From a virus (lineage: Duplodnaviria; Heunggongvirae; Uroviricota; Caudoviricetes), in IMG/VR virus record IMGVR_UViG_2534682109_000012: DNA of 8,892 bases. The stretch is one strand, 5' to 3'. Shown here in pieces: positions 1 through 8,892 of this stretch (its first letter is position 1; the number at the start of each line of letters is the position of its first letter). The notes under the pieces were generated by a model that saw only the letters and a program-made list of their open reading frames with translations, did no database searches and had not been told where the DNA came from. Position numbers and translations under genes: made by a program.

Positions 1-508
1 TTAACCAGTTAACAATTAACGCCGGATACAGAGAATCCCCCCATAACACTGTTTTTGGTTTTAACTGTTCCGCGTGCGCTGAGCCGCATTCACCGCATCA
101 CAAAATTCACTTTTAAAAAAGGGCGGCAGAGCAGTTACGGAGTAAAACTGATACCGCCAAATGTCACCAGAATATTGATAACAGAGGGCGTTGCAGCGGG
201 GTTGTCACTTAAGCGTATGGTCAACCTGACAACCCGGTGTCCTCAACGGGGAAGGAATAACCCCGCCATACTTACCGCCGCGCCATTTCGCGGATTGCCA
301 CAACCGGAAGCGCACGGTCGAATTAAATTTAACGACGGCTCTAAGGGAGAAGGACTTCGCCGTGCACTTTCGTGTTATGCCCTGACTTTTCAGGGATATA
401 TCCTTTCAGTAAACTGTCAGTGCCGGATTCTTATCTGTGTCCGGCGCACGACCACACGTAGCAGCGTGTTGGTCTCCATTTTTAATTCAGCCCTTAATGG
501 AGGATAAA

Positions 509-694
509 ATGCCAAACAAACCATGCCCTGCCTGTAACGCTCTTTCTGGCTTTTTAGAGAAGGGCGGTTATTACATTTTTAACTGTCCAGAACATGTTGA
601 ATTTCATATATCAAAACTTGACAGTATCATTACAAAGCCAAATCAGTATCAGTCTGATTTACTGAATAAAGAGTTAAACGCCGCCCGAGATTAA
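509..694 (+). CDS. Small hypothetical protein (61 aa) with a CxxC...CxxH zinc-ribbon-like motif
   Basis: ATG at 509 preceded by GGAGG (499-503) at 5 nt spacing; ORF runs to TAA at 692-694. Translation MPNKPCPACNALSGFLEKGGYYIFNCPEHVEF... carries CPAC and CPEH pairs about 16 residues apart. The longer track ORF from 437 has no RBS and is probably an over-extension. No family recognised. Confidence 0.5.
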   Translation: MPNKPCPACNALSGFLEKGGYYIFNCPEHVEFHISKLDSIITKPNQYQSDLLNKELNAARD

Positions 695-880
695 GGGCGT
701 AGTGGCCCATTAAAAATATTGCAAAGACCAACTATTGTTGAACTGGATTAAACCAGTAATTCTCTATTGCTCTTATTGTTACCATCGGATGATTGCCGGG
801 GGTTATTTTAAGTTCGGGAGGAAAAGGCTCTCCATCAGCAGCCATCATTGAGTATGTGAAATCCGCCGACGCAGTCCCTT

Positions 881-1270
881 TCATGATAATTCCGAATTTT
901 TCAAGTAATGAGAGCAGTTCCGGTAATCCTGTGTCATCTGAATAACTTTCCTCATAGAAAGAAGCGATTGCCGCAGGAGATGACAGTTCTCGCTCTGCAA
1001 TTTTTTTGTAGTTTTCCAGAATTCTTTTTTTGAATACTTTTCCTCGACATGAAAACCCATCACCGAGGCAATCCGCTTTGCAGTTTCTTCAGTATTCTGG
1101 TTGTTTGTTACCGAAACAGAGTACAATCCGGTAAACGCATCGCGCACATTACGAGCCATATTATCAATGTATTTCTTCGTTGCAGATTCTAATTCAACTT
1201 CGTTCAGACGTTGGTGAAGTGCATGTGCTGCAATTTCCTGGATTTCTTTTAGTAAATCTTTAAATTCCAT
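881..1270 (-). CDS. Hypothetical protein (129 aa), last gene of the leftward early operon
   Basis: ATG (complement of 1268-1270) preceded on the minus strand by GGAG; it starts 11 nt after the stop of the upstream 42-aa gene. Only long ORF in this interval; no family recognised. Confidence 0.55.
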   Translation of the reverse strand: MEFKDLLKEIQEIAAHALHQRLNEVELESATKKYIDNMARNVRDAFTGLYSVSVTNNQNTEETAKRIASVMGFHVEEKYSKKEFWKTTKKLQSENCHLLRQSLLSMRKVIQMTQDYRNCSHYLKNSELS

Positions 1271-1281
1271 CTTTAACTCCG

Positions 1282-1410
1282 TTAGTCGTTAGATTTTGCC
1301 GAACTGGAAAGCGCCTGTTTAAACTCACTGAAGCTGAGAGCTTCCTCGCCTTCGGCAAGGCCTTCGAAGTATTCTTCGTAAGCCTTTTCCATGATTGTGT
1401 CGAAATCCAT
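1282..1410 (-). CDS. Small acidic hypothetical protein (42 aa); size and position resemble Rac-prophage YdaG-type small proteins
   Basis: Hand translation of the minus strand gives MDFDTIMEKAYEEYFEGLAEGEEALSFSEFKQALSSSAKSND. ATG is preceded by AGGTGA at 5 nt and lies 1 nt after the TGA of the upstream 51-aa gene (TGA-t-ATG), a tight coupling that argues for a real gene despite the small size. Not in the ORF track because it is shorter than the track cutoff. Confidence 0.45.
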   Translation of the reverse strand: MDFDTIMEKAYEEYFEGLAEGEEALSFSEFKQALSSSAKSND

Positions 1411-1411
1411 A

Positions 1412-1567
1412 TCACTCACCTGAGTTTCTTTCCAGCCAGCGACGGGCACCATTTTCGGTTTTAAACGTTTTGCTTTTGGTATACGTCATCGCGGTGAATG
1501 TACCGTCCTGGTTGGGAAACACGCCGTACACCAGAGATTCGTTGTTGCCAAGATCGATAGTATCCAT
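1412..1567 (-). CDS. Small hypothetical protein (51 aa); size and position resemble Rac-prophage YdaF-type small proteins
   Basis: Internal ATG (complement of 1565-1567) of track ORF 1412..1606, giving MDTIDLGNNESLVYGVFPNQDGTFTAMTYTKSKTFKTENGARRWLERNSGE; preceded by GAGGT at 4 nt. The track start at 1606 is a TTG without an RBS. Confidence 0.5.
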   Translation of the reverse strand: MDTIDLGNNESLVYGVFPNQDGTFTAMTYTKSKTFKTENGARRWLERNSGE

Positions 1568-1623
1568 GTTGACCTCATTTCCCCTTAACGCCGGGTAGCG
1601 GAACAAAAACCTGCTGCATAGTT

Positions 1624-1652
1624 ATTAAAGTTGAACCCTGCCGTCATGTTCA
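1624..1652 (-). promoter_or_regulatory. Candidate sigma70 promoter for the leftward small-gene operon
   Basis: On the minus strand: -35-like TGAACA (complement of 1647-1652), 17-bp spacer, -10-like TTTAAT (complement of 1624-1629), about 55 nt upstream of the 51-aa gene start. Hexamer matching only; speculative. Confidence 0.2.
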
Positions 1653-1754
1653 TACGCCTCGGGCTGGCTACTTACCCCCTGACCACTGCTTGGTAACTCG
1701 AAGTATTGCCCGGCGTTCTGTGGGGCGGGGTGGGTGGTTGGTGTATGTAATCTA

Positions 1755-1792
1755 CAATTAAAAACTGTTTTTGTGTCAACAGTTTTTAATTG
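1755..1792. promoter_or_regulatory. 38-bp perfect palindrome (15-bp arms CAATTAAAAACTGTT / AACAGTTTTTAATTG, 8-bp spacer); candidate distal operator (OL-like)
   Basis: Read directly: 1755-1769 is the exact reverse complement of 1778-1792. It shares the core AAAAACTGT / ACAGTTTTT with the palindrome at 2791-2825 in the divergent promoter region. On the minus strand the spacer and arm contain a perfect TTGACA (complement of 1774-1779). Confidence 0.5.
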
Positions 1793-1803
1793 TTGTTTTG
1801 GGC

Positions 1804-1826
1804 AAAAAAATCCCTCGAAAGAGGGA
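1804..1826 (-). terminator. Rho-independent terminator for the leftward TA operon
   Basis: TCCCTC-GAAA-GAGGGA hairpin (1811-1826, 6-bp stem, GAAA loop); on the minus strand it is followed by a run of 7 T (complement of the A-run at 1804-1810). It lies 18 nt downstream of the toxin stop codon (1845-1847). Confidence 0.55.
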
Positions 1827-1844
1827 GTATGAAAATTGTTCAAC

Positions 1845-2132
1845 TCAGATAGAGAAGGGAAATTGTCGCCGAGAATGTGTCACGCTTACAATCTCAATGC
1901 TTGAAGCAGCTACTCTGTACAGGATTATGTAGTTAGGGTGGGTCACGATCTCTCTCAATCCAGAAACCCGTTCGCTTGGTGGATATAAGTACGGATGCTC
2001 AGATAGAGGTAATACCGATGTTTCAATGCGTATTTTTAGTCTACGTGCTGCCGGTGGGTTCTCCTTGGCGATGTAAGTTATGATCTGGCGCAAATCATCG
2101 CGAGCAGACGGTAGCCATAAAATGGGTAACAT
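1845..2132 (-). CDS. parE2: ParE/RelE-family type II toxin (95 aa), third gene of the regulator-antitoxin-toxin operon
   Basis: Translation MLPILWLPSARDDLRQIITYIAKENPPAARRL...GLREIVTHPNYIILYRVAASSIEIVSVTHSRRQ has the conserved ParE pattern (N-terminal W..A..DL..I..YI, central GLRE, C-terminal NYIILYRV...IEIV.V.H.RR). Its ATG overlaps the antitoxin TAA by one base (TAATG). Symbol by analogy to the paaR2-paaA2-parE2 operon of E. coli O157:H7 prophages, recalled from memory. Confidence 0.8.
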   Translation of the reverse strand: MLPILWLPSARDDLRQIITYIAKENPPAARRLKIRIETSVLPLSEHPYLYPPSERVSGLREIVTHPNYIILYRVAASSIEIVSVTHSRRQFPFSI

Positions 2133-2323
2133 TACTCGCTCTTGTTAGTTACAGCAATTTGAGCAATAAGATTTTCCATTTCAGCCATTACCTCGTCATG
2201 TGGAATTGCGGGGCGAGTGTCTGCAAGGCTTGACGTTACTTTAGTGCGCAACCATTCGTTGTAACTGTTTTCTTGTTCGGTAGTTTCGAATTCTGAAACT
2301 ATCGGAGAAAGGGCTGTACCCAT
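2132..2323 (-). CDS. paaA2: PaaA2-like antitoxin (63 aa) of the three-component TA module
   Basis: Translation MGTALSPIVSEFETTEQENSYNEWLRTKVTSSLADTRPAIPHDEVMAEMENLIAQ matches my recollection of the PaaA2 antitoxin (63 aa). It sits immediately upstream of and overlapping the ParE gene; GAGGAG lies 7 nt before the ATG. Confidence 0.75.
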   Translation of the reverse strand: MGTALSPIVSEFETTEQENSYNEWLRTKVTSSLADTRPAIPHDEVMAEMENLIAQIAVTNKSE

Positions 2324-2350
2324 GGCATAACTCCTCTTCTTGTACTGTGG

Positions 2351-2752
2351 TCACGCCCGGCGGCTTTTTTGTGCCGCCAGCCACCTAGCAATGGTTTCTT
2401 CCATTGATTTTTTCTTGTCTTTGATTTCTTGAAGCATTTTTTCTTGGTCTTCCTCAGGAAACGCACTAAAAGCTTGGAGCAGTTCGCGTTGGCGAGGACC
2501 AATTTTCATCGTGTCAGGGGTGAAAATTTGCTCACACTCTTCAGGAGGCAATAAAAACCAATGCAATGGATGCCCTGAAACCTCAACCAGTTTATCCAAA
2601 CTTGAGGCTTTAGGTGTAGCCTTACCGCTGACCCATTGTTGAACAGTTTGTTGTGTCACACCAATTCTACGGGCAAGCTCAGCCTGGCTCCATCCAGTTT
2701 CCTGAAGAAGCTTGCTGATTCTGTACATAGATACTTCTAGGGCGCTCATCAT
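2351..2752 (-). CDS. paaR2: HTH (XRE/DicA-like) transcriptional regulator, PaaR2-like; CI-equivalent repressor of the immunity region
   Basis: Helix-turn-helix WSQAELARRIGVTQQTVQQWVSGKATP; the C-terminal LPPEE...RELLQAFSAFPEEDQEKMLQEIK segment resembles the DicA C-terminus, and there is no S24 peptidase domain. It is divergent from the Cro-like gene and first gene of the TA operon. The start is ambiguous (ATG at 2752 or 2749, neither with an SD), possibly leaderless. Confidence 0.8.
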   Translation of the reverse strand: MMSALEVSMYRISKLLQETGWSQAELARRIGVTQQTVQQWVSGKATPKASSLDKLVEVSGHPLHWFLLPPEECEQIFTPDTMKIGPRQRELLQAFSAFPEEDQEKMLQEIKDKKKSMEETIARWLAAQKSRRA

Positions 2753-2760
2753 TATTCAAT

Positions 2761-2766
2761 TTTACA
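2761..2766 (-). promoter_or_regulatory. Candidate -10 element (TAAAAT) for a leaderless regulator transcript
   Basis: On the minus strand TAAAAT lies 8 nt upstream of the regulator ATG and no SD is present, reminiscent of lambda pRM / cI. The -35 is weak. Speculative. Confidence 0.2.
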
Positions 2767-2790
2767 GGTAAATACTGTTAAAAGCATCAC

Positions 2791-2825
2791 AATAAAAAAC
2801 TGTTGATTGCATACAGTTTTTTATT
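2791..2825. promoter_or_regulatory. 35-bp perfect palindrome (13-bp arms AATAAAAAACTGT / ACAGTTTTTTATT, 9-bp spacer); candidate OR-like operator in the divergent promoter region
   Basis: Read directly: 2791-2803 is the reverse complement of 2813-2825. It lies between the divergent regulator and Cro-like genes, and an extra half-site-like AATACTGTTA sits at 2771-2780. Same core as the 1755-1792 palindrome. Confidence 0.5.
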
Positions 2826-2837
2826 GTAGGCTTTGCT

Positions 2838-2856
2838 TATAGTTTTTAGAGGAGGG
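2838..2856 (+). promoter_or_regulatory. Candidate -10 (TATAGT, 2838-2843) and RBS (GGAGGG, 2851-2856) for the rightward Cro-like operon
   Basis: TATAGT is a 5/6 match to TATAAT and GGAGGG lies 4 nt before the ATG at 2861. The -35 region would overlap the right arm of the palindrome. The short distance from -10 to RBS implies a very short leader; uncertain. Confidence 0.3.
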
Positions 2857-2860
2857 CAAA

Positions 2861-3133
2861 ATGCTAGATAGCACTCGCGAAAAAATTAGGCAGAAATACA
2901 CTCAGGCTGAAATAGGTCGTTATATGGGGGTCGCTCAACAGACTGTTTGGCAATGGTTTAGCTTTGGCGTTCCCCCAAAGCAGGTAATTCCGTTATGCCA
3001 ACTAATGAAGTGGGAAGTTACCCCGCATGAAATCCGCCCAGATATTTATCCTAACCCAACCGACGGTTTACCTGTTGGATGTAAGGTTAACACATCAAAT
3101 GCGCCGGAGTTGATTCATGAAAATCAAGCATGA
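2861..3133 (+). CDS. ydaS: Cro-like HTH DNA-binding protein, YdaS family (90 aa)
   Basis: HTH TQAEIGRYMGVAQQTVWQWFSFGVP followed by the EV..HEIRPDIY motif I associate with the YdaS family. It is divergent from the repressor with a strong RBS. Symbol by synteny and family resemblance, from memory. Confidence 0.7.
   Translation: MLDSTREKIRQKYTQAEIGRYMGVAQQTVWQWFSFGVPPKQVIPLCQLMKWEVTPHEIRPDIYPNPTDGLPVGCKVNTSNAPELIHENQA
3110..3127. promoter_or_regulatory. Perfect inverted repeat TTGATT-N6-AATCAA at the ydaS/ydaT junction; candidate YdaT (CII-like) binding site
   Basis: Read directly: TTGATTcatgaaAATCAA. It overlaps the ydaT start codon (3117-3119). I recall that YdaT of prophage CP-933P was reported to recognise a TTGATT-N6-AATCAA repeat; that recollection is unverified. 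Confidence 0.4.
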
Positions 3134-3542
3134 ACACATCCGCATGGCGATGAATGCCTGGGCGCATCCGGACGGCGAAAAAGTACCGGCTGCGAAAATT
3201 ACCAAAGCGTATTTCGAGCTGGGAATGACGTTCCCGGAACTGTATGACGACAGCCATCCGGAAGCCATGGCTCGCAATACTCAGAAAATTTTCCGCTGGG
3301 TGGAGAAAGACACTCCTGATGCGGTTAAAAAAATTCAGGCGTTGTTACCAGCGATCGAAAAAGCGATGCCGCCTCCGCTGGTGGCCCGAATGCGCAGCCA
3401 CAGTTCCGCTTATTTTCGGGAGTTGGTAGAGACGAAGGAACGGCTGGTGAAAGATATTGATGATTTCGTTGCATCAGCGATCGTTCTGTTCGATCAGATG
3501 AATCGTGGTGGCCCGGCAGGAAACACTCTGGCTGTGCATTAA
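3117..3542 (+). CDS. ydaT: YdaT-like protein (141 aa), proposed CII-functional-equivalent / toxic regulator of Rac-type prophages
   Basis: Second gene of the rightward operon; it overlaps the ydaS 3' end by 17 nt, with GGAG 8 nt upstream of the ATG. Length and position match YdaT of Rac/CP-933P; sequence family recognised from memory only. Confidence 0.7.
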   Translation: MKIKHEHIRMAMNAWAHPDGEKVPAAKITKAYFELGMTFPELYDDSHPEAMARNTQKIFRWVEKDTPDAVKKIQALLPAIEKAMPPPLVARMRSHSSAYFRELVETKERLVKDIDDFVASAIVLFDQMNRGGPAGNTLAVH

Positions 3543-3555
3543 TTGGGTAATAAAT

Positions 3556-4065
3556 ATGAGTAATGACAAAAAATTGACACTGAGCGTTTACGAAAACAGT
3601 CCGCACATCTGGCGTGGCGGTTTATCTGATGTGGAGCTGGCAGAGTGGTTGATACATAAAGCTAATGCGCTGCTCTGGCGTTTGTCAGCCAGAGAACAGC
3701 GCAAGGAAACCAGAATAAAGCTGGCTGATGCAGAAGCGTGTGCCGGGCTTATTGAGGATTATACAAATCTTGGTATTTCTTCAGCAGAGAGTGATCCCAT
3801 TCAGCCTCTGAGCAGGGAGTCAATCCAGCACGCTGGTTGTATGGCACATCTTGTAACTGCTCGTCAACATGAGGTGGGTATTGGATCACTTCCGGCGGGA
3901 TATTCGCTGATTCCAGAGCTGGTTGAAGCAAGAAAATCAGTTCAGAAAAAGAGAGATGACGCACTTCAATTATTGAGAGAGCACTATGGCGCGATACCAG
4001 AATGCGAACAGCGTCGATACCCTGAAGGTTATGAATGGATGCAGTCTCTTTTTGAAGTTCGCTAA
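3556..4065 (+). CDS. Hypothetical protein (169 aa), unknown function
   Basis: Internal ATG of track ORF 3505..4065, chosen because it starts 13 nt after the ydaT stop (the track start would overlap ydaT). The translation is protein-like (MSNDKKLTLSVYENSPHIWRGGLSDVELAEWLIHKANALLWRL...). No family recognised; weak SD. Confidence 0.5.
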   Translation: MSNDKKLTLSVYENSPHIWRGGLSDVELAEWLIHKANALLWRLSAREQRKETRIKLADAEACAGLIEDYTNLGISSAESDPIQPLSRESIQHAGCMAHLVTARQHEVGIGSLPAGYSLIPELVEARKSVQKKRDDALQLLREHYGAIPECEQRRYPEGYEWMQSLFEVR

Positions 4066-4282
4066 TCAATATGTCGAGACGAAGGTATGTTTCGGCGCGC
4101 AGCCAGGCTCTGTAATCCGGGAGCATTTCGGGGCTGTTACACCAGCGGTTTGTTGCTGCAACATTTAATACATGAGCCTGATAAAGGCTTTTCAAAAAAT
4201 ACATGTCGAACCTCCTCTGGTTCTGTCGATTGGGAACCACAGATTATATCCGGAGGAAGGTTCGGCACCAGATGAGGTAGCC

Positions 4283-5374
4283 ATGCGTGATTACGCAAAA
4301 GTTTCTCCGCGATTCTGGCTGGGAGAAACGGGGAGAGAACTTAGAAAGGCGGGTGCAGAAGCGCAAGTTGTTGCTTTTTACCTGATGACATCCCCTCACG
4401 CAAATATGCTGGGTTTGTATTACCTGCCAGTTTTATACCTTGCTCATGAAACCGGGCTTGGTCTGGAAGGGGCTTCAAAGGGGCTTAAAAGGGCTGTTGA
4501 AGCTGGTTTTTGTAGCTATGACCATGATGCAGAGATGGTCTGGGTCCATGAAATGGCAGCCTGGCAGGTTGGGGAAACGTTGAAGCCTGGCGATAACCGT
4601 TGTGCAGGTGTCAGGAATGAGTATGCATCATTACCTGAAAACGCTTTTCTGTCAGTGTTTTACGACAGATATAAAACGGATTTCCATCTGGATGTGAGGC
4701 GGAATAATAGCCGAAATTCGGTAAGGGGCTTCGAAGGGGCTTTTAAGGGGCTTCGAAGCCAAGAACAGGAACAGGAGCAGGAGAAAGAACAGGAACAGGA
4801 CAAAAACACTATGGTTCATGGCAAAAAAAACACCACGAACCAGGCAGGGGATGTTCAGACCGTCAATCCTGGTCAGCCAGCAGGCACGACACCGGAAGCC
4901 GATTCGGGCGCTGTGCAGCAGGTGATGACCGCAGGGTCGGAGCAATCACACCAACTGCAGCAGCCTGAAGCCGATTCCGCCATTCAGCGGGAAGCCGATC
5001 GGGTAGTCCCGGAAAGCACCGGGCAGTCTGTGGGACGAGTGGATTATCCGGATGTGTTCGAACAGGTCTGGCGGGAATACCCGTTGCGTGCTGGGGCAAA
5101 CCCGAAGAAATCCGCTTTCAGTGCCTGGAAGGCCAGATTGCGCGAGGGGGTGCCACCAGAGACCATGCTGGATGGTGTGAGGCGTTACGCGAGATACCTG
5201 GCGGCGACCGGGAAAGCGGGAACGGAATTTGTTCAGCGAGCGACGACGTTTTTTGGGCCGGACCGGAATTTTGAAAACCCCTGGTTGCTCCCGGTAAGCG
5301 GCACGAACAACCAGCGTTGTGTGAATCATATTTCTGAACCGGATACCGAAATTCCGCCGGGATTCAGGGGGTGA
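4283..5374 (+). CDS. Phage replication initiator / replisome-organiser-like protein (363 aa from this start)
   Basis: ATG at 4283 preceded by GAGGT at 4 nt (the track start at 4172 has no RBS but cannot be excluded). The C-terminal segment FEQVWREYPLRAGANPKKSAFSAWKARL...G resembles the F..FW..YP.K..K..A...W motif of phage replisome-organiser domains. It lies directly upstream of the DnaC-like gene, contains internal iteron-like DNA repeats, and its stop overlaps the dnaC-like RBS region. Confidence 0.65.
   Translation: MRDYAKVSPRFWLGETGRELRKAGAEAQVVAFYLMTSPHANMLGLYYLPVLYLAHETGLGLEGASKGLKRAVEAGFCSYDHDAEMVWVHEMAAWQVGETLKPGDNRCAGVRNEYASLPENAFLSVFYDRYKTDFHLDVRRNNSRNSVRGFEGAFKGLRSQEQEQEQEKEQEQDKNTMVHGKKNTTNQAGDVQTVNPGQPAGTTPEADSGAVQQVMTAGSEQSHQLQQPEADSAIQREADRVVPESTGQSVGRVDYPDVFEQVWREYPLRAGANPKKSAFSAWKARLREGVPPETMLDGVRRYARYLAATGKAGTEFVQRATTFFGPDRNFENPWLLPVSGTNNQRCVNHISEPDTEIPPGFRG
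4467..4496. repeat. Cluster A of 11-bp-phased direct repeats AAGGGGCTT (2 perfect copies plus 1 degenerate)
   Basis: Copies at 4467-4475 and 4478-4486, with a degenerate AAGGGCTG at 4489-4496; the spacing is exactly 11 bp. Lies inside the initiator gene (peptide EGASKGLKRAVEAGF). Confidence 0.6.
4723..4760. repeat. Cluster B of 11-bp-phased direct repeats AAGGGGCTT (3 perfect copies) ending in the palindrome GGCTTCGAAGCC
   Basis: Copies at 4723-4731, 4734-4742 and 4745-4753, 11 bp apart; the palindrome GGCTTCGAAGCC is at 4749-4760. Cluster B is 256 bp downstream of cluster A and inside the initiator gene (peptide RGFEGAFKGLRSQ). Candidate ori iterons. Confidence 0.6.
4763..4801 (+). repeat. 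GAACAG/GAGCAG hexanucleotide tandem repeat encoding an EQEQEQEKEQEQD acidic linker
   Basis: Read directly: GAA CAG GAA CAG GAG CAG GAG AAA GAA CAG GAA CAG GAC, in frame with the initiator gene and immediately after repeat cluster B; followed by an A-rich stretch. Confidence 0.7.
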
Positions 5375-5380
5375 TGTGGC

Positions 5381-6127
5381 ATGAAAAACATTGCGGCAGC
5401 CGGGGTTCTTGAACGTATTCGCAGACTTGCACCACAGGCGTCGGTTCCACCGTACCGGACGGTGGAGGAGTGGCGGGAATGGCAACTTGCTGAAGGACGA
5501 AAACGCAGCGAGGAGATTAACCGCCAGAATCACCAGTTGCGGGTGGAAAAAATCCTGAATCGTTCGGGCATCCAGCCTCTGCACAGCAAATGCTCGTTTG
5601 CGAATTATCAGGTGCAGAACGACGGGCAAAAATACGCGCTGAGCCAGGCCAAATCCATAGCTGACGAACTGATGACCGGGTGCACGAATTTTGTGTTCAG
5701 CGGTAAAACCGGCACCGGGAAAAATCACCTTGCAGCGGCGATGGGTAACCGGCTGATGGCGAAGGGGCGCAGCGTGATTATCGTCACCGTGTCTGATGTC
5801 ATGAGCGTGTTGCATGACAGCTACGACAACGGCAAATCCGGGGAAAAATTTTTACAGGAGCTTTGCAGTGTTGATTTGCTGGTCCTGGATGAAATAGGCG
5901 TTCAGCGGGAGACGAAAAACGAGCAGGTGGTATTACACCAGATAATTGATCGCCGGACAGCATCACTGTGCAGTGTCGGGATGTTAACAAACCTGAATCA
6001 TGCCGCAATGAGTACACTTCTTGGTGAGAGGATTATGGACCGCATGACCATGAACGGTGGTCGATGGGTGACGTTTAACTGGGATAGCTGGCGTCCAAAT
6101 GTCAGCAATATGAGGGTTGTGAAGTAA
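5381..6127 (+). CDS. DnaC-like replicative helicase loader (AAA+ ATPase, 248 aa)
   Basis: Walker A FSGKTGTGKNHLAAAMG and Walker B DLLVLDEIGVQ; long collinear similarity to E. coli DnaC as I recall it (SGKPGTGKNHLAAAI...VDLLVIDEIGVQ...MLTNSN...LGERVMDRM...FNWDSYR). Same length and position as YdaV of Rac. Confidence 0.9.
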   Translation: MKNIAAAGVLERIRRLAPQASVPPYRTVEEWREWQLAEGRKRSEEINRQNHQLRVEKILNRSGIQPLHSKCSFANYQVQNDGQKYALSQAKSIADELMTGCTNFVFSGKTGTGKNHLAAAMGNRLMAKGRSVIIVTVSDVMSVLHDSYDNGKSGEKFLQELCSVDLLVLDEIGVQRETKNEQVVLHQIIDRRTASLCSVGMLTNLNHAAMSTLLGERIMDRMTMNGGRWVTFNWDSWRPNVSNMRVVK

Positions 6128-6148
6128 TTTTGTCCGGAGGAAATTTTA

Positions 6149-6865
6149 ATGGAAACCGTATCTGACGCACTGAAAGCACTGAAAAAAGCCTCTTCACATG
6201 TGGTGGCAGCTCGCCTTGGAATTAGTCGTGAAGAGGCTGTCAACGAACTGTGGAAACTGAAACGCCGTGGAGAAGCGGATAACAAGGGGGCGATATGGTG
6301 GCTGACTCAGGCTGGTGAAAGTGAACCGGTGTCACCGGTACCGAAAGTGACGGCGCAAATGCTGACAGAGGCGATTGAACAACATGGCCCACAAACGGCG
6401 GATGAACTGGCATTGATGTTCGGAATTACCTCCCGCCGGGCGAATTCATCGCTGGCAATGGCAATCAGCAAAGGGTGTCTGATTCGCGTGAATCAGGATG
6501 GTAAATTTCGTTACTGCATACCGGGCGTTGATTTACCGGCAGAGCCGAAAGCAGCATCCGTAGCTGAAACGGAGGGTAAAGCCCTTCCTCAGCCAGCTGG
6601 TGTTGCGTTACCAGTCCAGGAAACGGCTGCACAGGAAGAAATTAAAACAGAAGCGGTGGAGGACATTGTGAAGTTGCAGCAATCGTTCACTGAAGCGAAA
6701 GCAGATGACCTGATTCTACCATCGCTGCATGTGGCTAACCGCGAGCTGCGCCGGGCGAAAAGTAATGTTCAGAAGTGGGAGCGAGTCTGTGCTGCGCTAC
6801 GGGAACTGAACAAACACAGGGATATTCTCCGGGATATTACCGCCACCAGAGAGCAGCAGCGGTGA
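6149..6865 (+). CDS. Hypothetical protein (238 aa) with two N-terminal winged-helix-like segments and a C-terminal charged helical region
   Basis: ATG at 6149 with GGAGG 8 nt upstream. Two similar segments ([25 protein letters not shown] and [37 protein letters not shown]) look like winged-helix DNA-binding motifs. Occupies the position of ydaW-type genes after the DnaC-like gene. Confidence 0.65.
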
Positions 6866-7179
6866 GTGGCTGGAAGAAGTGGCGCTGGGCTGAAATCCTG
6901 ATACTCCGGCAGTGTGCGGGAACGATGAGAGTCGAAAGCATCGGTTATCTGATTGGCCGTAGTGAGTCAGCCGTCAGGACGAAAGCGCGGGAACTGGGTA
7001 TCAGCATGATGTTACGGGGTGATTATCACCAGTCAGCCAAATGTTCACAGCGTGATATTGAGCTGGCGTGGCAACTGCATCAGCGTGGTGTACCCCGACG
7101 GGAAATTGCCGAAAAGTTTGGGATGAAGTTGGGCGCAGTGAATAACTACGTTTATTTCGACAGGAGGGTTCAGGAGTGA
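6862..7179 (+). CDS. Small two-HTH DNA-binding protein (105 aa) with GcrA-N-terminal-like motifs
   Basis: GTG start overlapping the upstream TGA (GTGA). Motifs [11 protein letters not shown]...[21 protein letters not shown] and [32 protein letters not shown] resemble the W..E..L...G.S...IA..LG.S..AV..K...LG HTH pattern of GcrA-like domains. Alternative starts are the track start at 6775 and an ATG at 6925. Confidence 0.55.
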
Positions 7180-7478
7180 GGGTGAGGGTTTATATCGCCG
7201 GTCCGATGACGGGATATGAAAATTTTAACCGCGAGGCATTTCACAAAACGGAAGAGGTGCTGAAACGGGAAGGGCATACCGTTTTAAACCCGGCAGTACT
7301 TCCGGACGGGCTGACTCAGCCACACTACATGGATATTTGCATGGCAATGCTCCGTTGCGTGGATGCGGTTTACATGCTGAAAGGCTGGCAGCAGTCGGCA
7401 GGTGCAGGGGCTGAGCTGGCACTGGAGGAGAAACCGGGCCATGCGGTGATTTTTCAGGAGGTGGGCAGTGAATATTGA
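7176..7478 (+). CDS. DUF4406-like protein (nucleoside 2-deoxyribosyltransferase-like fold), 100 aa
   Basis: N-terminal VYIAGPMTG motif, then NP, and the C-terminal D.VYML.GW..S.GA..E motif characteristic of the DUF4406 / nucleoside 2-deoxyribosyltransferase-like superfamily as I recall it. GTG start (7176, or 7182) with CAGGAGG upstream; overlaps the previous stop. Confidence 0.7.
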   Translation: MRVRVYIAGPMTGYENFNREAFHKTEEVLKREGHTVLNPAVLPDGLTQPHYMDICMAMLRCVDAVYMLKGWQQSAGAGAELALEEKPGHAVIFQEVGSEY

Positions 7479-7785
7479 CCCGGCGATAACGATTGATATG
7501 GCCCTGAACGCCGGCCTGGCACTTCTTGGTTATTTCTACATTATGTTCTGCAGCGGACGATGGCTGTCACTGTTGTTCATGAAAAAATGGAATAAACGCC
7601 GTAAGCAGGAGCAACGCCAGAAGGCAATGGATGCATTTTTCGAAGCCTTCGGAATTGACGGCATGGAACCAGGGGATCCAGCTCGCGCAATCAGCAGAGG
7701 GGGTGTAGTAATCCTTGTATATCGGAGTGAAGAGAAAAATGACGATCACAAAACAACGTGTAGAAGAAATCATATCCCGCATTGA
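7468..7785 (+). CDS. Small predicted single-pass membrane protein (105 aa)
   Basis: GTG start with CAGGAGG 6 nt upstream. N-terminal hydrophobic helix ITIDMALNAGLALLGYFYIMF followed by a basic stretch KKWNKRRKQEQRQK. The 3' end overlaps the next gene by 47 nt, so the true extent is uncertain. Confidence 0.45.
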   Translation: MNIDPAITIDMALNAGLALLGYFYIMFCSGRWLSLLFMKKWNKRRKQEQRQKAMDAFFEAFGIDGMEPGDPARAISRGGVVILVYRSEEKNDDHKTTCRRNHIPH

Positions 7786-8056
7786 AATGTATGGACATGG
7801 TGCAGGGTATATCGCAGACGAGGTTAATGATCTGGCTATACTGGCGCTGAATTTATCAAATATCGCGAACCTGAAGCGATACGAGCTTGATATGGGAGGT
7901 TGCGACTCGTGCGGTCAGGATTGTGGCGCTGATATGACTGAAGATCCTGATGGTGATTATGTCCTGTTTGATGACGTGGTTAAGTTGTTTGAATTTGATA
8001 CAACCACTCAAAAGTTAGAAATCCCGGCAAAGGAGGCAGCCAGTGGGCAAGATTGA
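7739..8056 (+). CDS. Hypothetical acidic protein (105 aa) with a GGCDSCGQDCG Cys cluster
   Basis: Internal ATG at 7739 of track ORF 7715..8056 (the track start is a TTG); GGAG/GAAGAG upstream. No family recognised. Confidence 0.5.
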   Translation: MTITKQRVEEIISRIEMYGHGAGYIADEVNDLAILALNLSNIANLKRYELDMGGCDSCGQDCGADMTEDPDGDYVLFDDVVKLFEFDTTTQKLEIPAKEAASGQD

Positions 8057-8480
8057 CTATCAGGCACTGCGTGAGGCAGCACAAAACTATCAATCGACGC
8101 TGGCGTGGTATCAGGCTACCCCGGACAGCCCAAATGCTGAACGGGATTGTGATGCGGCTCTTGCTGCGTTTAAGCGTCACATCCGTCATCGGGAAGCGGA
8201 TATTATCGCTGATTTGCTGGATGGACTGGAAGAAGCAAAATCACAACTCAACGAGCAGCGTGAGTATTACGAAGGCGTTATCTCTGATGGGAGCAAGCGT
8301 ATTGCTGAACTGGAAGCGCGGGAAGTTCAATTACCGACTCGCTACGACCTTCGATATGGACACCCGATAAATGCAGATGAGCGACATGTCATGATACCTA
8401 AAGAAAATGGCAGTTGGCTTTACCTGATTGACCTAGAACACGCATTACGCGTCGCTGGCATTCGCATCAAAGGAGAGTGA
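8043..8480 (+). CDS. Ead/Ea22-like prophage protein (145 aa), coiled-coil containing
   Basis: GTG start with AAGGAGG 7 nt upstream. The N-terminal IDYQALREAAQ... and central coiled-coil region resemble the Ea22-like family common in E. coli prophages (from memory). Overlaps the previous gene by 14 nt. Confidence 0.5.
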   Translation: MGKIDYQALREAAQNYQSTLAWYQATPDSPNAERDCDAALAAFKRHIRHREADIIADLLDGLEEAKSQLNEQREYYEGVISDGSKRIAELEAREVQLPTRYDLRYGHPINADERHVMIPKENGSWLYLIDLEHALRVAGIRIKGE

Positions 8481-8481
8481 G

Positions 8482-8673
8482 ATGAACGGACAAATATCAA
8501 TTGTTCGACCAGGAGCATGTGACGATCGCGAAATACGAATGATTATTCGTCTGGCGATGGGGAAAACAATAACTGCTCTCATTACTCCAGAAAATCTCGC
8601 ATTAGCATTAACAGGAAAGTCAGACATGCCAGTAGAGCTAAAGCTGCGAAATGTTGAGATTAAGGTGAAATAG
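8482..8673 (+). CDS. Hypothetical protein (63 aa)
   Basis: ATG at 8482 with AGGAG 6 nt upstream, 1 nt after the upstream TGA. No family recognised. Confidence 0.5.
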   Translation: MNGQISIVRPGACDDREIRMIIRLAMGKTITALITPENLALALTGKSDMPVELKLRNVEIKVK

Positions 8674-8675
8674 CT

Positions 8676-8892
8676 ATGACCACTATTACCAAAGATCGAC
8701 TGCTGACAATCCAGCATTGGCGCGAAACATACGGACCGGGTAGCAACGTTGTGCTTCCAGCAGAAGAAGCGGAAGAGCTGGCACGGATTGCGCTGGCATC
8801 ACTGGCAGCAGTATCGGATGAACGAGCAGCCTATGAATTATTTATGGAGAAGCGTTTCGGAGAATCTGTAGATCGCCGCAGAGCAAAAAATG
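8676..8892 (+). CDS. Hypothetical protein, 5' partial CDS running off the window end (at least 72 aa)
   Basis: ATG at 8676 with AAGGTGA 7 nt upstream; open frame with no stop through position 8892 (MTTITKDRLLTIQHWRETYGPGSNVVLPAEEAEELARIALASLAAV...). Absent from the ORF track because it has no stop in the window. Confidence 0.5.
   Translation, partial: MTTITKDRLLTIQHWRETYGPGSNVVLPAEEAEELARIALASLAAVSDERAAYELFMEKRFGESVDRRRAKN

What the first reader, a model, noticed from the sequence alone, without database searches (positions are those of the whole stretch)
1755..2825. Two related AT-rich perfect palindromes about 1 kb apart, candidate OL/OR-like operators bracketing the TA operon
A 38-bp palindrome (1755-1792, 15-bp arms) and a 35-bp palindrome (2791-2825, 13-bp arms) share the core AAAAACTGT / ACAGTTTTT. 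One sits in the divergent promoter region between the regulator and the Cro-like gene; the other sits just beyond the TA-operon terminator, upstream of the leftward small-gene operon. This mirrors the lambda OR/OL arrangement and suggests a single repressor controls both early operons, possibly with looping. The operators of this switch are not, to my knowledge, textbook sites.
Basis: seen in the sequence. Interest (0 to 1): 0.6.

Follow-up and report, generated by a model that had tools for sequence, protein, structure and literature searches.

The report
Prophage repressor operators, 434-like, OR and OL

Summary
There are perfect inverted repeats at 1754-1793 (16-nt arms) and 2789-2827 (15-nt arms), and the exact 9-mer AAAAACTGT occurs four times in the window, only in these arms.

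The window is the immunity region of an E. coli O157:H7 Sp4/CP-933M-type lambdoid prophage. It is the paralogue of the experimentally studied CP-933P paaR2-paaA2-parE2/ydaS-ydaT switch.

The OR/OL reading holds, but the unit of recognition is not the long palindrome. Each arm is its own 15-bp operator, ACA-N9-TGT (consensus ACARTWWWWWAYTGT). There are three at OR (2764-2778, 2789-2803, 2813-2827) and two at OL (1754-1768, 1779-1793).

Six relatives from Salmonella, Raoultella, Pluralibacter, Morganella and two metagenomes keep the same layout, with constant 15-bp sites and variable spacers. One lacks a recognisable third OR site and one ends within OL. They do not keep the long perfect palindrome.

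The sites overlap the inferred PR, PL and a leaderless PRM.

The repressor's HTH domain keeps the base-contacting glutamines of phage 434 repressor. The sites resemble 434 operators with one extra central base.

The CP-933P operator motif is absent, so the two prophages should be heteroimmune.

Protein binding and OL-OR looping are inferred, not shown. I rate it a new member of a known kind, of modest interest.

The parts
2813..2827 (.). O_R1, a 15-bp operator ACAGTTTTTTATTGT, lying between the -35 and -10 of the inferred PR
   Evidence: It is the right arm of the OR palindrome. An ACA-N9-TGT site sits at the equivalent position in all six relatives.
2789..2803 (.). O_R2, a 15-bp operator ACAATAAAAAACTGT. 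It overlaps the PR -35 by 1 nt, and about 1 nt separates it from the weak PRM -35.
   Evidence: It is the left arm of the OR palindrome. The O_R1-O_R2 spacer is 9 nt in four relatives and 8 nt in L013 and L014.
2764..2778 (.). O_R3, a 15-bp operator ACAGGTAAATACTGT, covering the PRM spacer and touching its -10.
   Evidence: An ACA-N9-TGT site lies exactly 10 nt from O_R2 in five of the six relatives. In Morganella L012 the site is degenerate.
1754..1768 (.). O_L1, a 15-bp operator (ACAGTTTTTAATTGT read on the minus strand), lying between the -35 and -10 of the inferred PL
   Evidence: The doublet is conserved downstream of the regulator operon in L003, L005, L011, L012 and L014.
1779..1793 (.). 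O_L2, a 15-bp operator (ACAATTAAAAACTGT read on the minus strand), overlapping the PL -35 by 1 nt
1749..1779 (-). Inferred PL: -35 TTGACA (1774-1779), 19-nt spacer, -10 TAGATT (1749-1754). It would drive the leftward ydfA-ydfB-...-DicF operon.
   Evidence: TTGACA/TTGACG-N17-19-TAGATT is conserved at the same place relative to the operators in L003 and L005. The generic scan did not call it because the spacer is 19 nt.
2803..2832 (+). Inferred PR: -35 TTGATT (2803-2808), 18-nt spacer, -10 TAGGCT (2827-2832). It would drive the cro-like and ydaT genes.
   Evidence: The positional equivalents are TTGACC/TAGTCT in L003 and TTGACT/TATTCT in L005. This is an inference; the generic scan did not call it.
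2752..2764 (-). Inferred PRM -10 TAAAAT (2759-2764), followed by exactly 6 nt and then the regulator's ATG (2750-2752). This implies a leaderless mRNA.
   Evidence: The same geometry (-10, 6 nt, ATG) is found in all six relatives and in phage Evi, which carries the PaaR2 type. The leaderless start of paaR2 was mapped by 5' RACE in PMC8630535.
2351..2752 (-). Repressor of 133 aa (ECs_1069 in Sakai Sp4). It has an N-terminal Cro/CI-type HTH and a C-terminal helical hairpin shared with PaaR2 and DicA, and no S24 peptidase domain.
   Evidence: Pfam HTH_3. The best PDB match is 434 repressor. The C-terminal part (residues 37-133) is 42% identical to PaaR2. Identity to DicA is 28% over 111 aligned residues (residues 22-129).
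2861..3133 (+). Cro-like YdaS-family protein of 90 aa, with recognition helix QQTVWQW
   Evidence: Pfam YdaS_toxin.
1845..2323 (-). paaA-parE toxin-antitoxin cargo between the repressor gene and OL
   Evidence: Pfam PaaA2 and ParE_toxin. This cargo is absent or different in the relatives.
1804..1826 (-). Terminator-like hairpin and T-run ending the regulator-paaA-parE operon, just before OL
   Evidence: The fold energy is -9.6 kcal/mol.

Best explanation
[quoted passage not shown] Each palindrome arm is a separate 15-bp, pseudo-symmetric operator, ACA(A/G)T-W5-A(C/T)TGT. I infer that a dimer of the 133-aa repressor binds each one, through a 434-repressor-like helix-turn-helix whose Gln-Gln...Gln recognition helix reads the ACA(A/G) half-sites. 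OR holds three sites: O_R1 and O_R2 over PR, and O_R3 over a leaderless PRM. OL holds two sites over PL. Repressor bound at O_R1/O_R2 and O_L1/O_L2 would shut off the cro-like/ydaT operon and the leftward ydfA-DicF(-dicB) operon. O_R2 sits next to a weak PRM -35, where bound repressor could activate its own synthesis and that of the co-transcribed PaaA-ParE module. O_R3 would give negative autoregulation. The Cro-like YdaS protein carries a near-identical recognition helix and presumably competes for the same sites. Shown here: the sites, their conservation and covariation, their geometry relative to promoter-like hexamers, and the homologies. Inferred: which protein binds, cooperativity, and OL-OR looping through the PaaR2-like oligomerisation domain.
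For: (1) Identity of the locus. The window is 99.6% identical over bases 1-6262 to Sakai prophage Sp4. OR, the regulator, the cro-like gene and paaA-parE are exact matches. PMC8630535 states that a homologue of paaR2-paaA2-parE2 lies on CP-933M.

(2) Experimental precedent in the paralogue. PaaR2 and YdaS footprint on OR, and both repress PR, PRM and a PL located beyond the TA genes.

(3) Comparative evidence. Regulator homologues of 42-81% identity were traced to six loci: L003, L005, L011, L012, L013 and L014. Five of the six carry an ACA-N9-TGT triplet between the cro-like gene and the regulator, with spacers of 8-9 and 10 nt. In Morganella L012 the third site is degenerate. Five of the six carry a doublet after the regulator operon. 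L013 ends at the contig edge with one site. These are 32 clustered sites, against 0.21 isolated sites per kb.

(4) Site length is constant at 15 bp, while inter-site spacers vary from 8 to 10 nt. O_R3 stands alone. So the arm, not the long palindrome, is the unit.

(5) Changes among E. coli alleles spare the ACAR/YTGT ends. L002 has spacer changes only, and Sakai has a T-to-A change at central position 6.

(6) The best PDB match is 434 repressor (E = 3e-5). Q17, T27, Q28, Q29 and Q33 are conserved in the alignment. The annotated 434 operators are ACAA-N6-TTGT, and 434 OR3 is ACAGTTTTTCTTGT against ACAGTTTTTTATTGT here.

(7) The Cro-like proteins share the QQTVxQW helix.

(8) Heteroimmune relatives have other operators. 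The PaaR2 type (phage Evi) has an unrelated HTH and Cro, the GTTTAGTAA-type sites are absent from this window, and homology to Evi breaks exactly at OL. The E. coli variant L007 has the helix AQQSVQKW and AACTTTTAAAGTT-type sites.

(9) Promoter geometry is conserved: TTGACA-N17-19-TAGATT at OL, and -10 plus 6 nt plus ATG at PRM.
Against: No binding or expression data exist for this repressor or these sites. Everything functional is by homology and position. The generic sigma-70 scan called none of PR, PL or PRM. PL has a 19-nt spacer in this allele, PR has a 3/6 -10, and PRM has a weak -35. The 15-bp length differs from the 14 bp of 434, so the residue-to-base contacts are transferred by analogy only. 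The perfect complementarity of adjacent sites, including their asymmetric centres, at both OR and OL in this lineage is not explained by independent dimer sites. OL has two sites rather than the three reported for lambda, 434 and CP-933P.
Confidence: 0.8

Rival explanations
1. Each 38-40-bp palindrome is a single operator, whose half-sites (AAAAACTGT) are read by one symmetric dimer or tetramer across the 8-9-nt loop.
For: The arms are perfectly complementary over 15-16 nt at both places in this lineage, including the asymmetric A-tract centres. L003 O_R1/O_R2 are also complementary at 14 of 15 positions.
Against: The distance between arms varies from 8 to 10 nt among relatives, and even between OL and OR of this window, while arm length is fixed at 15 bp. 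The OL pairs of L003 and L005 are poor inverted repeats. O_R3 is a lone 15-mer conserved in five of the six relatives. Each arm has its own ACA...TGT dyad like a 434 operator. Sakai Sp4 breaks the OL palindrome.
Confidence: 0.12
2. The palindromes act as nucleic-acid structures rather than protein sites: RNA hairpins or terminators, cruciforms, or recombination boundaries of the immunity cassette.
For: As RNA they would fold at -18 to -19 kcal/mol, z about -6.8. The scan flags 1754-1793 as terminator-like on the plus strand. Homology with the heteroimmune phage Evi breaks right at OL.
Against: The stems are almost pure A-U, and there is no U-run on the strand that is transcribed through OL. 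The OR palindrome lies upstream of both the PR and PRM starts, so it is not transcribed in the lysogen. The long hairpin is not conserved in relatives, while the 15-mers are. Mosaic boundaries at operators are the normal consequence of immunity-module exchange.
Confidence: 0.04
3. They are LexA (SOS) boxes, since the inner ends read CTGT...ACAG.
For: CTGT and ACAG flank the loops.
Against: The LexA box is CTGT-N8-ACAG (established consensus). Here the gaps are N9 at OR and N10 at OL. In relatives the inner half is often ACAA, and spacing varies.
Confidence: 0.01

Closest known systems
CP-933P (Sp12) immunity switch: PaaR2 / YdaS / YdaT with OR, PRM, PR, PL and OL1-3 (Jurenas et al. 2021, mBio, PMC8630535)
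   Same: The gene order is the same: regulator-paaA-parE leftward, ydaS-ydaT rightward. Both have a leaderless regulator mRNA geometry, an operator cluster in the divergent gap, and a second cluster with PL just beyond the TA genes. The regulators share the C-terminal domain (42% identity). YdaT is 90% identical, and its published binding motif is present in this window.
   Different: The N-terminal HTH of the regulator and the Cro-like protein are not alignable. The operator motif differs: GTTTAGTAA-type repeats there, ACA-N9-TGT here. OL has two sites here against three reported there. Nothing has been tested experimentally for this locus.
Phage 434 repressor and Cro with their 14-bp operators ACAA-N6-TTGT
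   Same: 434 repressor is the best solved-structure match to the HTH domain, and the base-contacting Gln residues are conserved. The half-sites are ACAA/ACAG with an AT-rich uncontacted centre. Three OR sites lie about 22-25 bp apart, and Cro shares the QQ helix.
   Different: The operators are 15 bp, not 14 bp. The repressor has no S24 autocleavage domain and instead carries a PaaR2/DicA-type helical C-terminus. OL has two sites. The Cro-like protein belongs to the YdaS family.
Lambda OR/OL with CI octamer-mediated looping
   Same: Both have tripartite OR over divergent PR/PRM, OL over PL, accessory genes (rexAB there, paaA-parE here) co-transcribed with the repressor between its gene and OL, and adjacent-site spacing of 23-25 bp.
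   Different: The proteins and site sequences are unrelated in detail. The OL-OR distance is about 1.03 kb, against about 2.3 kb in lambda as quoted in the PMC5880393 abstract. Looping and octamerisation have not been shown for this protein.
DicA/DicC of prophage Qin and the GfoR/GtgR short repressors of Gifsy prophages (Lemire et al. 2011, PMC3121763)
   Same: These are short repressors of about 135 aa without a cleavage domain. DicA is homologous over 111 aligned residues (residues 22-129; 28% identity, E = 6e-12). The leftward operon is the same, ydfA-ydfB-...-DicF-dicB, directly downstream of the repressor.
   Different: The recognition helix and operator sequences differ. Qin has no TA cargo. 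Control by an antirepressor was not examined here.

Membership tests
Lambdoid immunity-region operator set (OR plus OL) | Divergent repressor and cro genes separated by a short gap that holds several copies of one repeated site overlapping both promoters | tested here: met
   Three ACA-N9-TGT sites lie in the 108-bp gap, over the inferred PR and PRM.
Lambdoid immunity-region operator set (OR plus OL) | A second cluster of the same site over a leftward promoter, beyond the repressor operon | tested here: met
   A doublet at 1754-1793 overlaps TTGACA-N19-TAGATT. It is conserved in five relatives.
Lambdoid immunity-region operator set (OR plus OL) | Operator sequence co-varies with the repressor's DNA-binding domain (heteroimmunity) | tested here: met
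   The PaaR2 type (Evi) and the L007 type have different HTH domains and different repeats at the same positions.
Lambdoid immunity-region operator set (OR plus OL) | Repressor and Cro bind the sites and repress PR and PL | not testable with these tools
   Shown only for the paralogue CP-933P (PMC8630535).
Phage 434-type operator and repressor | ACAA (or ACAG) half-sites read by a Gln28/Gln29/Gln33 recognition helix | tested here: met
   The half-site consensus is ACA[A/G]T over 64 half-sites. The Q residues are aligned and conserved. Base contacts are assumed by analogy.
Phage 434-type operator and repressor | 14-bp operator (ACAA-N6-TTGT) | tested here: not met
   All 32 clustered sites are 15 bp (ACA-N9-TGT), whereas the 434 sites are 14 bp.
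Phage 434-type operator and repressor | C-terminal LexA/S24-type autocleavage and dimerisation domain | tested here: not met
   The protein is 133 aa with no Peptidase_S24 hit. The model shows a linker plus a helical hairpin.
PaaR2 (CP-933P) operator specificity | GTTTAGTAA-type inverted repeats at OR and OL | tested here: not met
   There are no such sites at OR or OL. The only two 1-mismatch hits lie elsewhere, at chance level.
DicA/GfoR/PaaR short prophage repressors | About 130-aa HTH protein with a shared C-terminal helical domain and no cleavage domain, sitting at the cI position | tested here: met
   Searches give the homology to PaaR2 and DicA. Searches give the domain content.
DicA/GfoR/PaaR short prophage repressors | Inactivation by a LexA-controlled antirepressor | not tested
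   No antirepressor gene was looked for. It would lie outside this window.
LexA SOS box | CTGT-N8-ACAG spacing | tested here: not met
   The spacing is N9 at OR and N10 at OL.

The most novel reading that the evidence does not exclude
A 434-like recognition helix, fused to a PaaR2/DicA-type oligomerisation domain, reads operators one base pair longer than those of 434. In this lineage, adjacent operators have been made exact mirror copies at both OR and OL. A two-fold-symmetric tetramer (or an OL-OR octamer closing a roughly 1-kb loop around a toxin-antitoxin module) would then be the real binding species. This would be a natural experiment on how the oligomerisation domain sets operator length and how a TA module is wired into a looped bistable switch.
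Probability: 0.2. Interest if true: 0.45.

Novelty: new member of a known kind. Interest (0 to 1): 0.3.

Why it matters
The result gives the probable operator code (ACARTWWWWWAYTGT, three sites at OR and two at OL) for the Sp4/CP-933M immunity type. More than 500 complete E. coli genomes carry this immunity region, and relatives occur in Salmonella, Klebsiella/Raoultella, Pluralibacter and Morganella. It predicts that this prophage is heteroimmune to CP-933P, despite the shared TA module, YdaT and repressor C-terminal domain. It places the PaaA-ParE module and the DicF/dicB-type division inhibitors under one repressor. It also offers a clean comparison with phage 434 (same contact residues, operators of 15 bp against 14 bp). 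It does not change the general picture of lambdoid switches.

Tried and rejected
- **PaaR2 operator motif.** I searched the window for GTTTAGTAA. It is absent from OR and OL.
- **PaaR2 in the PDB.** No solved structure matched beyond generic HTH domains, even at E up to 10. Foldseek gave only Cro/CI-type HTH folds.
- **Long perfect palindromes in relatives.** None with arms of at least 10 nt were found in L003, L005 or L007. That result led to the arm-as-operator reading.
- **Generic promoter scan.** It called none of PR, PL or PRM. The promoter assignments therefore rest on positional conservation.
- **Literature.** Hallez et al. 2010 is not held. The searches for paaR1/paaA1/parE1 and for CP-933M/Sp4 with repressor, operator or immunity region found no paper describing these operators. 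I did not search for the operator sequences of this locus themselves. A search for 434 operator strings in papers gave one incidental hit, so I took the 434 operators from the annotated phage 434 record instead.
- **LexA-box reading.** Rejected on spacing.
- **Third OL site and fourth OR site.** I looked 23-25 bp beyond the clusters and found nothing convincing. There is only a half-site-like AAAAACTAT at 2839-2847 over the cro RBS.
Full report
**Observation.** The first is 1754-1793, with perfect 16-nt arms and an 8-nt loop. The second is 2789-2827, with perfect 15-nt arms and a 9-nt loop. The exact 9-mer AAAAACTGT occurs four times in the window, only in the four arms. In 200 dinucleotide-preserving shuffles, perfect inverted repeats with arms of at least 13 nt appeared three times in all. 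The window has two, and they share their sequence.

**Context.** The genes around the finding are as follows.
- An HTH_3 regulator of 133 aa (2351-2752, minus strand).
- PaaA2-family antitoxin (2132-2323, minus) and ParE toxin (1845-2132, minus).
- A DUF1391/ydfA gene (1412-1606, minus).
- A YdaS-family Cro-like gene (2861-3133, plus) and a YdaT-family gene (3117-3542, plus).

The window is 100% identical over 1400-3200 to E. coli strain 472, where it lies in a prophage next to yccA. It is 99.6% identical over bases 1-6262 to prophage Sp4 of O157:H7 Sakai. OR, the regulator (annotated 'phage repressor protein', ECs_1069), the cro-like gene and paaA-parE are exact matches.

Jurenas et al. 2021 (PMC8630535) studied the paralogous paaR2-paaA2-parE2/ydaS-ydaT region of CP-933P and note a homologue on CP-933M. 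In CP-933P, PaaR2 and YdaS footprint on the divergent gap. paaR2 is leaderless by 5' RACE. A PL promoter with OL1-3 beyond the TA genes is repressed by both proteins. PaaR2 is reported to octamerise. The OR/OL architecture is therefore experimentally established for the paralogue.

**Not the same specificity.** PaaR2 starts MQKKE, and its operators are GTTTAGTAA-type repeats. That motif is absent from OR and OL here. Phage Evi carries the PaaR2 type. Compared with Evi:
- The regulators align only from residue 37 onward (42% identity).
- The Cro-like proteins do not align at all.
- YdaT is 90% identical.
- DNA homology on the left breaks exactly at OL.

This is the classic heteroimmune mosaic.

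**What the unit is.** Each arm begins ACA and ends TGT, so it is itself a pseudo-symmetric 15-mer. Scanning for ACA-N9-TGT finds seven sites in the window. Five of them are at 1754, 1779, 2764, 2789 and 2813, against a mean of 2.0 sites in shuffles.

Homologues of the regulator at 42-81% identity were traced to contigs from Salmonella (L003), Raoultella (L005), Pluralibacter (L011), Morganella (L012) and two metagenomes (L013, L014).
- Five of the six have a triplet of ACA-N9-TGT sites between the cro-like gene and the regulator, with spacers of 8-9 nt and then 10 nt. In Morganella L012 the third site is degenerate.
- Five of the six have a doublet downstream of the regulator operon. L013 ends at the contig edge with one site.
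- None has a long perfect palindrome.

Site length is always 15 bp, while the gaps between sites vary from 8 to 10 nt. The promoter-proximal O_R3 site stands alone. The 32 clustered sites give the consensus ACA-R-T-W-W-W-W-W-A-Y-TGT. Isolated matches run at 0.21 per kb.

Among E. coli alleles, differences fall in spacers or in the central W positions. L002 has two substitutions in the OR spacer and a 1-bp deletion in the OL spacer. Sakai Sp4 has T-to-A at position 6 of one OL site, which already breaks the perfect palindrome.

**Promoter geometry (inferred).**
- PL, read on the minus strand, is TTGACA (1774-1779), 19 nt, TAGATT (1749-1754). O_L1 fills the spacer and O_L2 touches the -35. L003 and L005 have TTGACA/TTGACG-N18/17-TAGATT at the same place.
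- PR is TTGATT (2803-2808), 18 nt, TAGGCT (2827-2832), with O_R1 in the spacer.
- PRM has -10 TAAAAT (2759-2764 on the minus strand), followed by exactly 6 nt and the ATG at 2752. All six relatives and Evi share this geometry, and it matches the RACE-mapped leaderless paaR2 start. O_R3 covers the PRM spacer. About 1 nt separates O_R2 from a weak -35, the position from which lambda-type repressors activate PRM.
- The generic scan called none of these promoters. It did find the parE-distal terminator at 1811-1826.

**Who reads the sites (inferred).** The best solved-structure relative of the regulator is the phage 434 repressor DNA-binding domain (E = 3e-5). In the alignment, 434 residues Q17, T27, Q28, Q29 and Q33 are conserved, and S30 is replaced by T. 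By established structural work on 434 repressor-operator complexes, Q28, Q29 and Q33 contact the ACAA half-site.

The annotated phage 434 record gives ACAA-N6-TTGT operators, with OR3 = ACAGTTTTTCTTGT. The window's ACAGTTTTTTATTGT differs by essentially one extra central base.

The AlphaFold model (pLDDT 82) shows a five-helix HTH domain, a disordered linker, and a C-terminal helical hairpin. Foldseek finds only Cro/CI-type HTH folds. There is no S24 peptidase domain. The protein is homologous to DicA of prophage Qin over 111 aligned residues (residues 22-129) and belongs with the short GfoR/GtgR/DicA repressors discussed by Lemire et al. (PMC3121763).

The Cro-like proteins of all these loci carry the same QQ(T/S)V motif in the recognition helix, QQTVWQW in the window. 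This fits competition for the same sites.

A heteroimmune E. coli variant (L007) has a regulator 64% identical, with recognition helix AQQSVQKW. It has different repeats (AACTTTTAAAGTT-type, ACAC ends) at the same OR and OL positions.

**Rivals.**
- Single-operator-per-palindrome model: disfavoured by the variable arm-to-arm spacing, the lone O_R3, and the non-conservation of the long palindrome.
- LexA boxes: excluded by spacing, N9 and N10 rather than N8.
- RNA hairpin, terminator or cruciform: energetically possible at about -18 to -19 kcal/mol. However, the stems are A-U rich and lack a U-tail on the transcribed strand. The OR copy is not transcribed from PR or PRM. The hairpin is not conserved where the 15-mers are.

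**What remains open.** No binding, expression or looping data exist for this locus.
- Looping over the roughly 1.03 kb between OL and OR is an inference. It rests on the shared PaaR2-type C-terminal domain and the reported PaaR2 octamer.
- Independent dimer sites do not explain why adjacent operators are exact mirror copies at both OR and OL in this lineage.
- PL has an unusually long 19-nt spacer here and in Sakai, against 18 nt in L002.

**Verdict.** The OR/OL interpretation is supported, with a corrected unit of recognition and an added third OR site. The arrangement is known, and the specific 15-bp, 434-like operator set of the Sp4/CP-933M immunity type appears undescribed in the literature I could search. 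It is a new member of a known kind, of modest interest.

Noticed in passing
window 121-172 (-): There is a DicF antisense sRNA gene (Rfam RF00039, 76.9 bits against a gathering score of 48). With ydfA and ydfB upstream and dicB just beyond the window in strain 472 and Sakai, the leftward operon under the inferred PL/OL is a dicB-operon homologue. The repressor would therefore also silence cell-division inhibitors.
   Followed up: partly
window 3110-3127 (+): There is a perfect match, TTGATTCATGAAAATCAA, to the published YdaT recognition repeat 5'-TTGATTN6AATCAA-3' (PMC9986795). It spans the 3' end of the cro-like gene and the ydaT start codon at 3117. YdaT here is 90% identical to the CP-933P/Evi type, so a PRE-like, YdaT-activated promoter is likely present.
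   Followed up: partly
window about 1606-1745 (- strand leader between PL and ydfA): This roughly 140-nt stretch is nearly identical among heteroimmune phages (Evi, L002, and partly L003 and L007). It includes a C-rich run, CCCACCCCGCCCC, on the transcribed strand right after PL. Its function is unknown; it could be a leader or antitermination-type element.
   Followed up: no
between the regulator gene and OL: window 1794-2350; L003 3403-3984; L005 3403-4252; L011 2900-3619; L012 2897-3007: The cargo co-transcribed with the repressor varies. It is PaaA-ParE in the E. coli types, unrelated ORFs of unknown function in Salmonella, Raoultella and Pluralibacter, and nothing in Morganella, where OL lies about 110 bp after the stop. 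This slot behaves like lambda's rexAB moron position.
   Followed up: partly
window 1755-1773; L002 and L015 equivalents: The inferred PL has a 19-nt spacer in this allele and in Sakai Sp4, which is suboptimal for sigma-70. It is 18 nt in L002 and L003 and 17 nt in L005. PL may be weakened in the O157 cryptic prophage.
   Followed up: no
L007 2879-3000 and 3903-4010: A third immunity type carries PaaA-ParE in E. coli. Its regulator is 64% identical and has the recognition helix AQQSVQKW. Its own repeats (AACTTTTAAAGTT, ACACCTATAAG...GTGT) sit at both OR and OL, with the same TTGACA placement at OL.
   Followed up: partly
window 8490-8504: An isolated operator-like 15-mer, ACAAATATCAATTGT, lies at the start of ORF 8482-8673. 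Its frequency is consistent with chance, since shuffles give about 2 such sites per window.
   Followed up: no
window 6263-8892: The window stops matching Sakai Sp4 after base 6262, inside the DUF1627-type gene region. This indicates a mosaic junction with another lambdoid prophage backbone.
   Followed up: no
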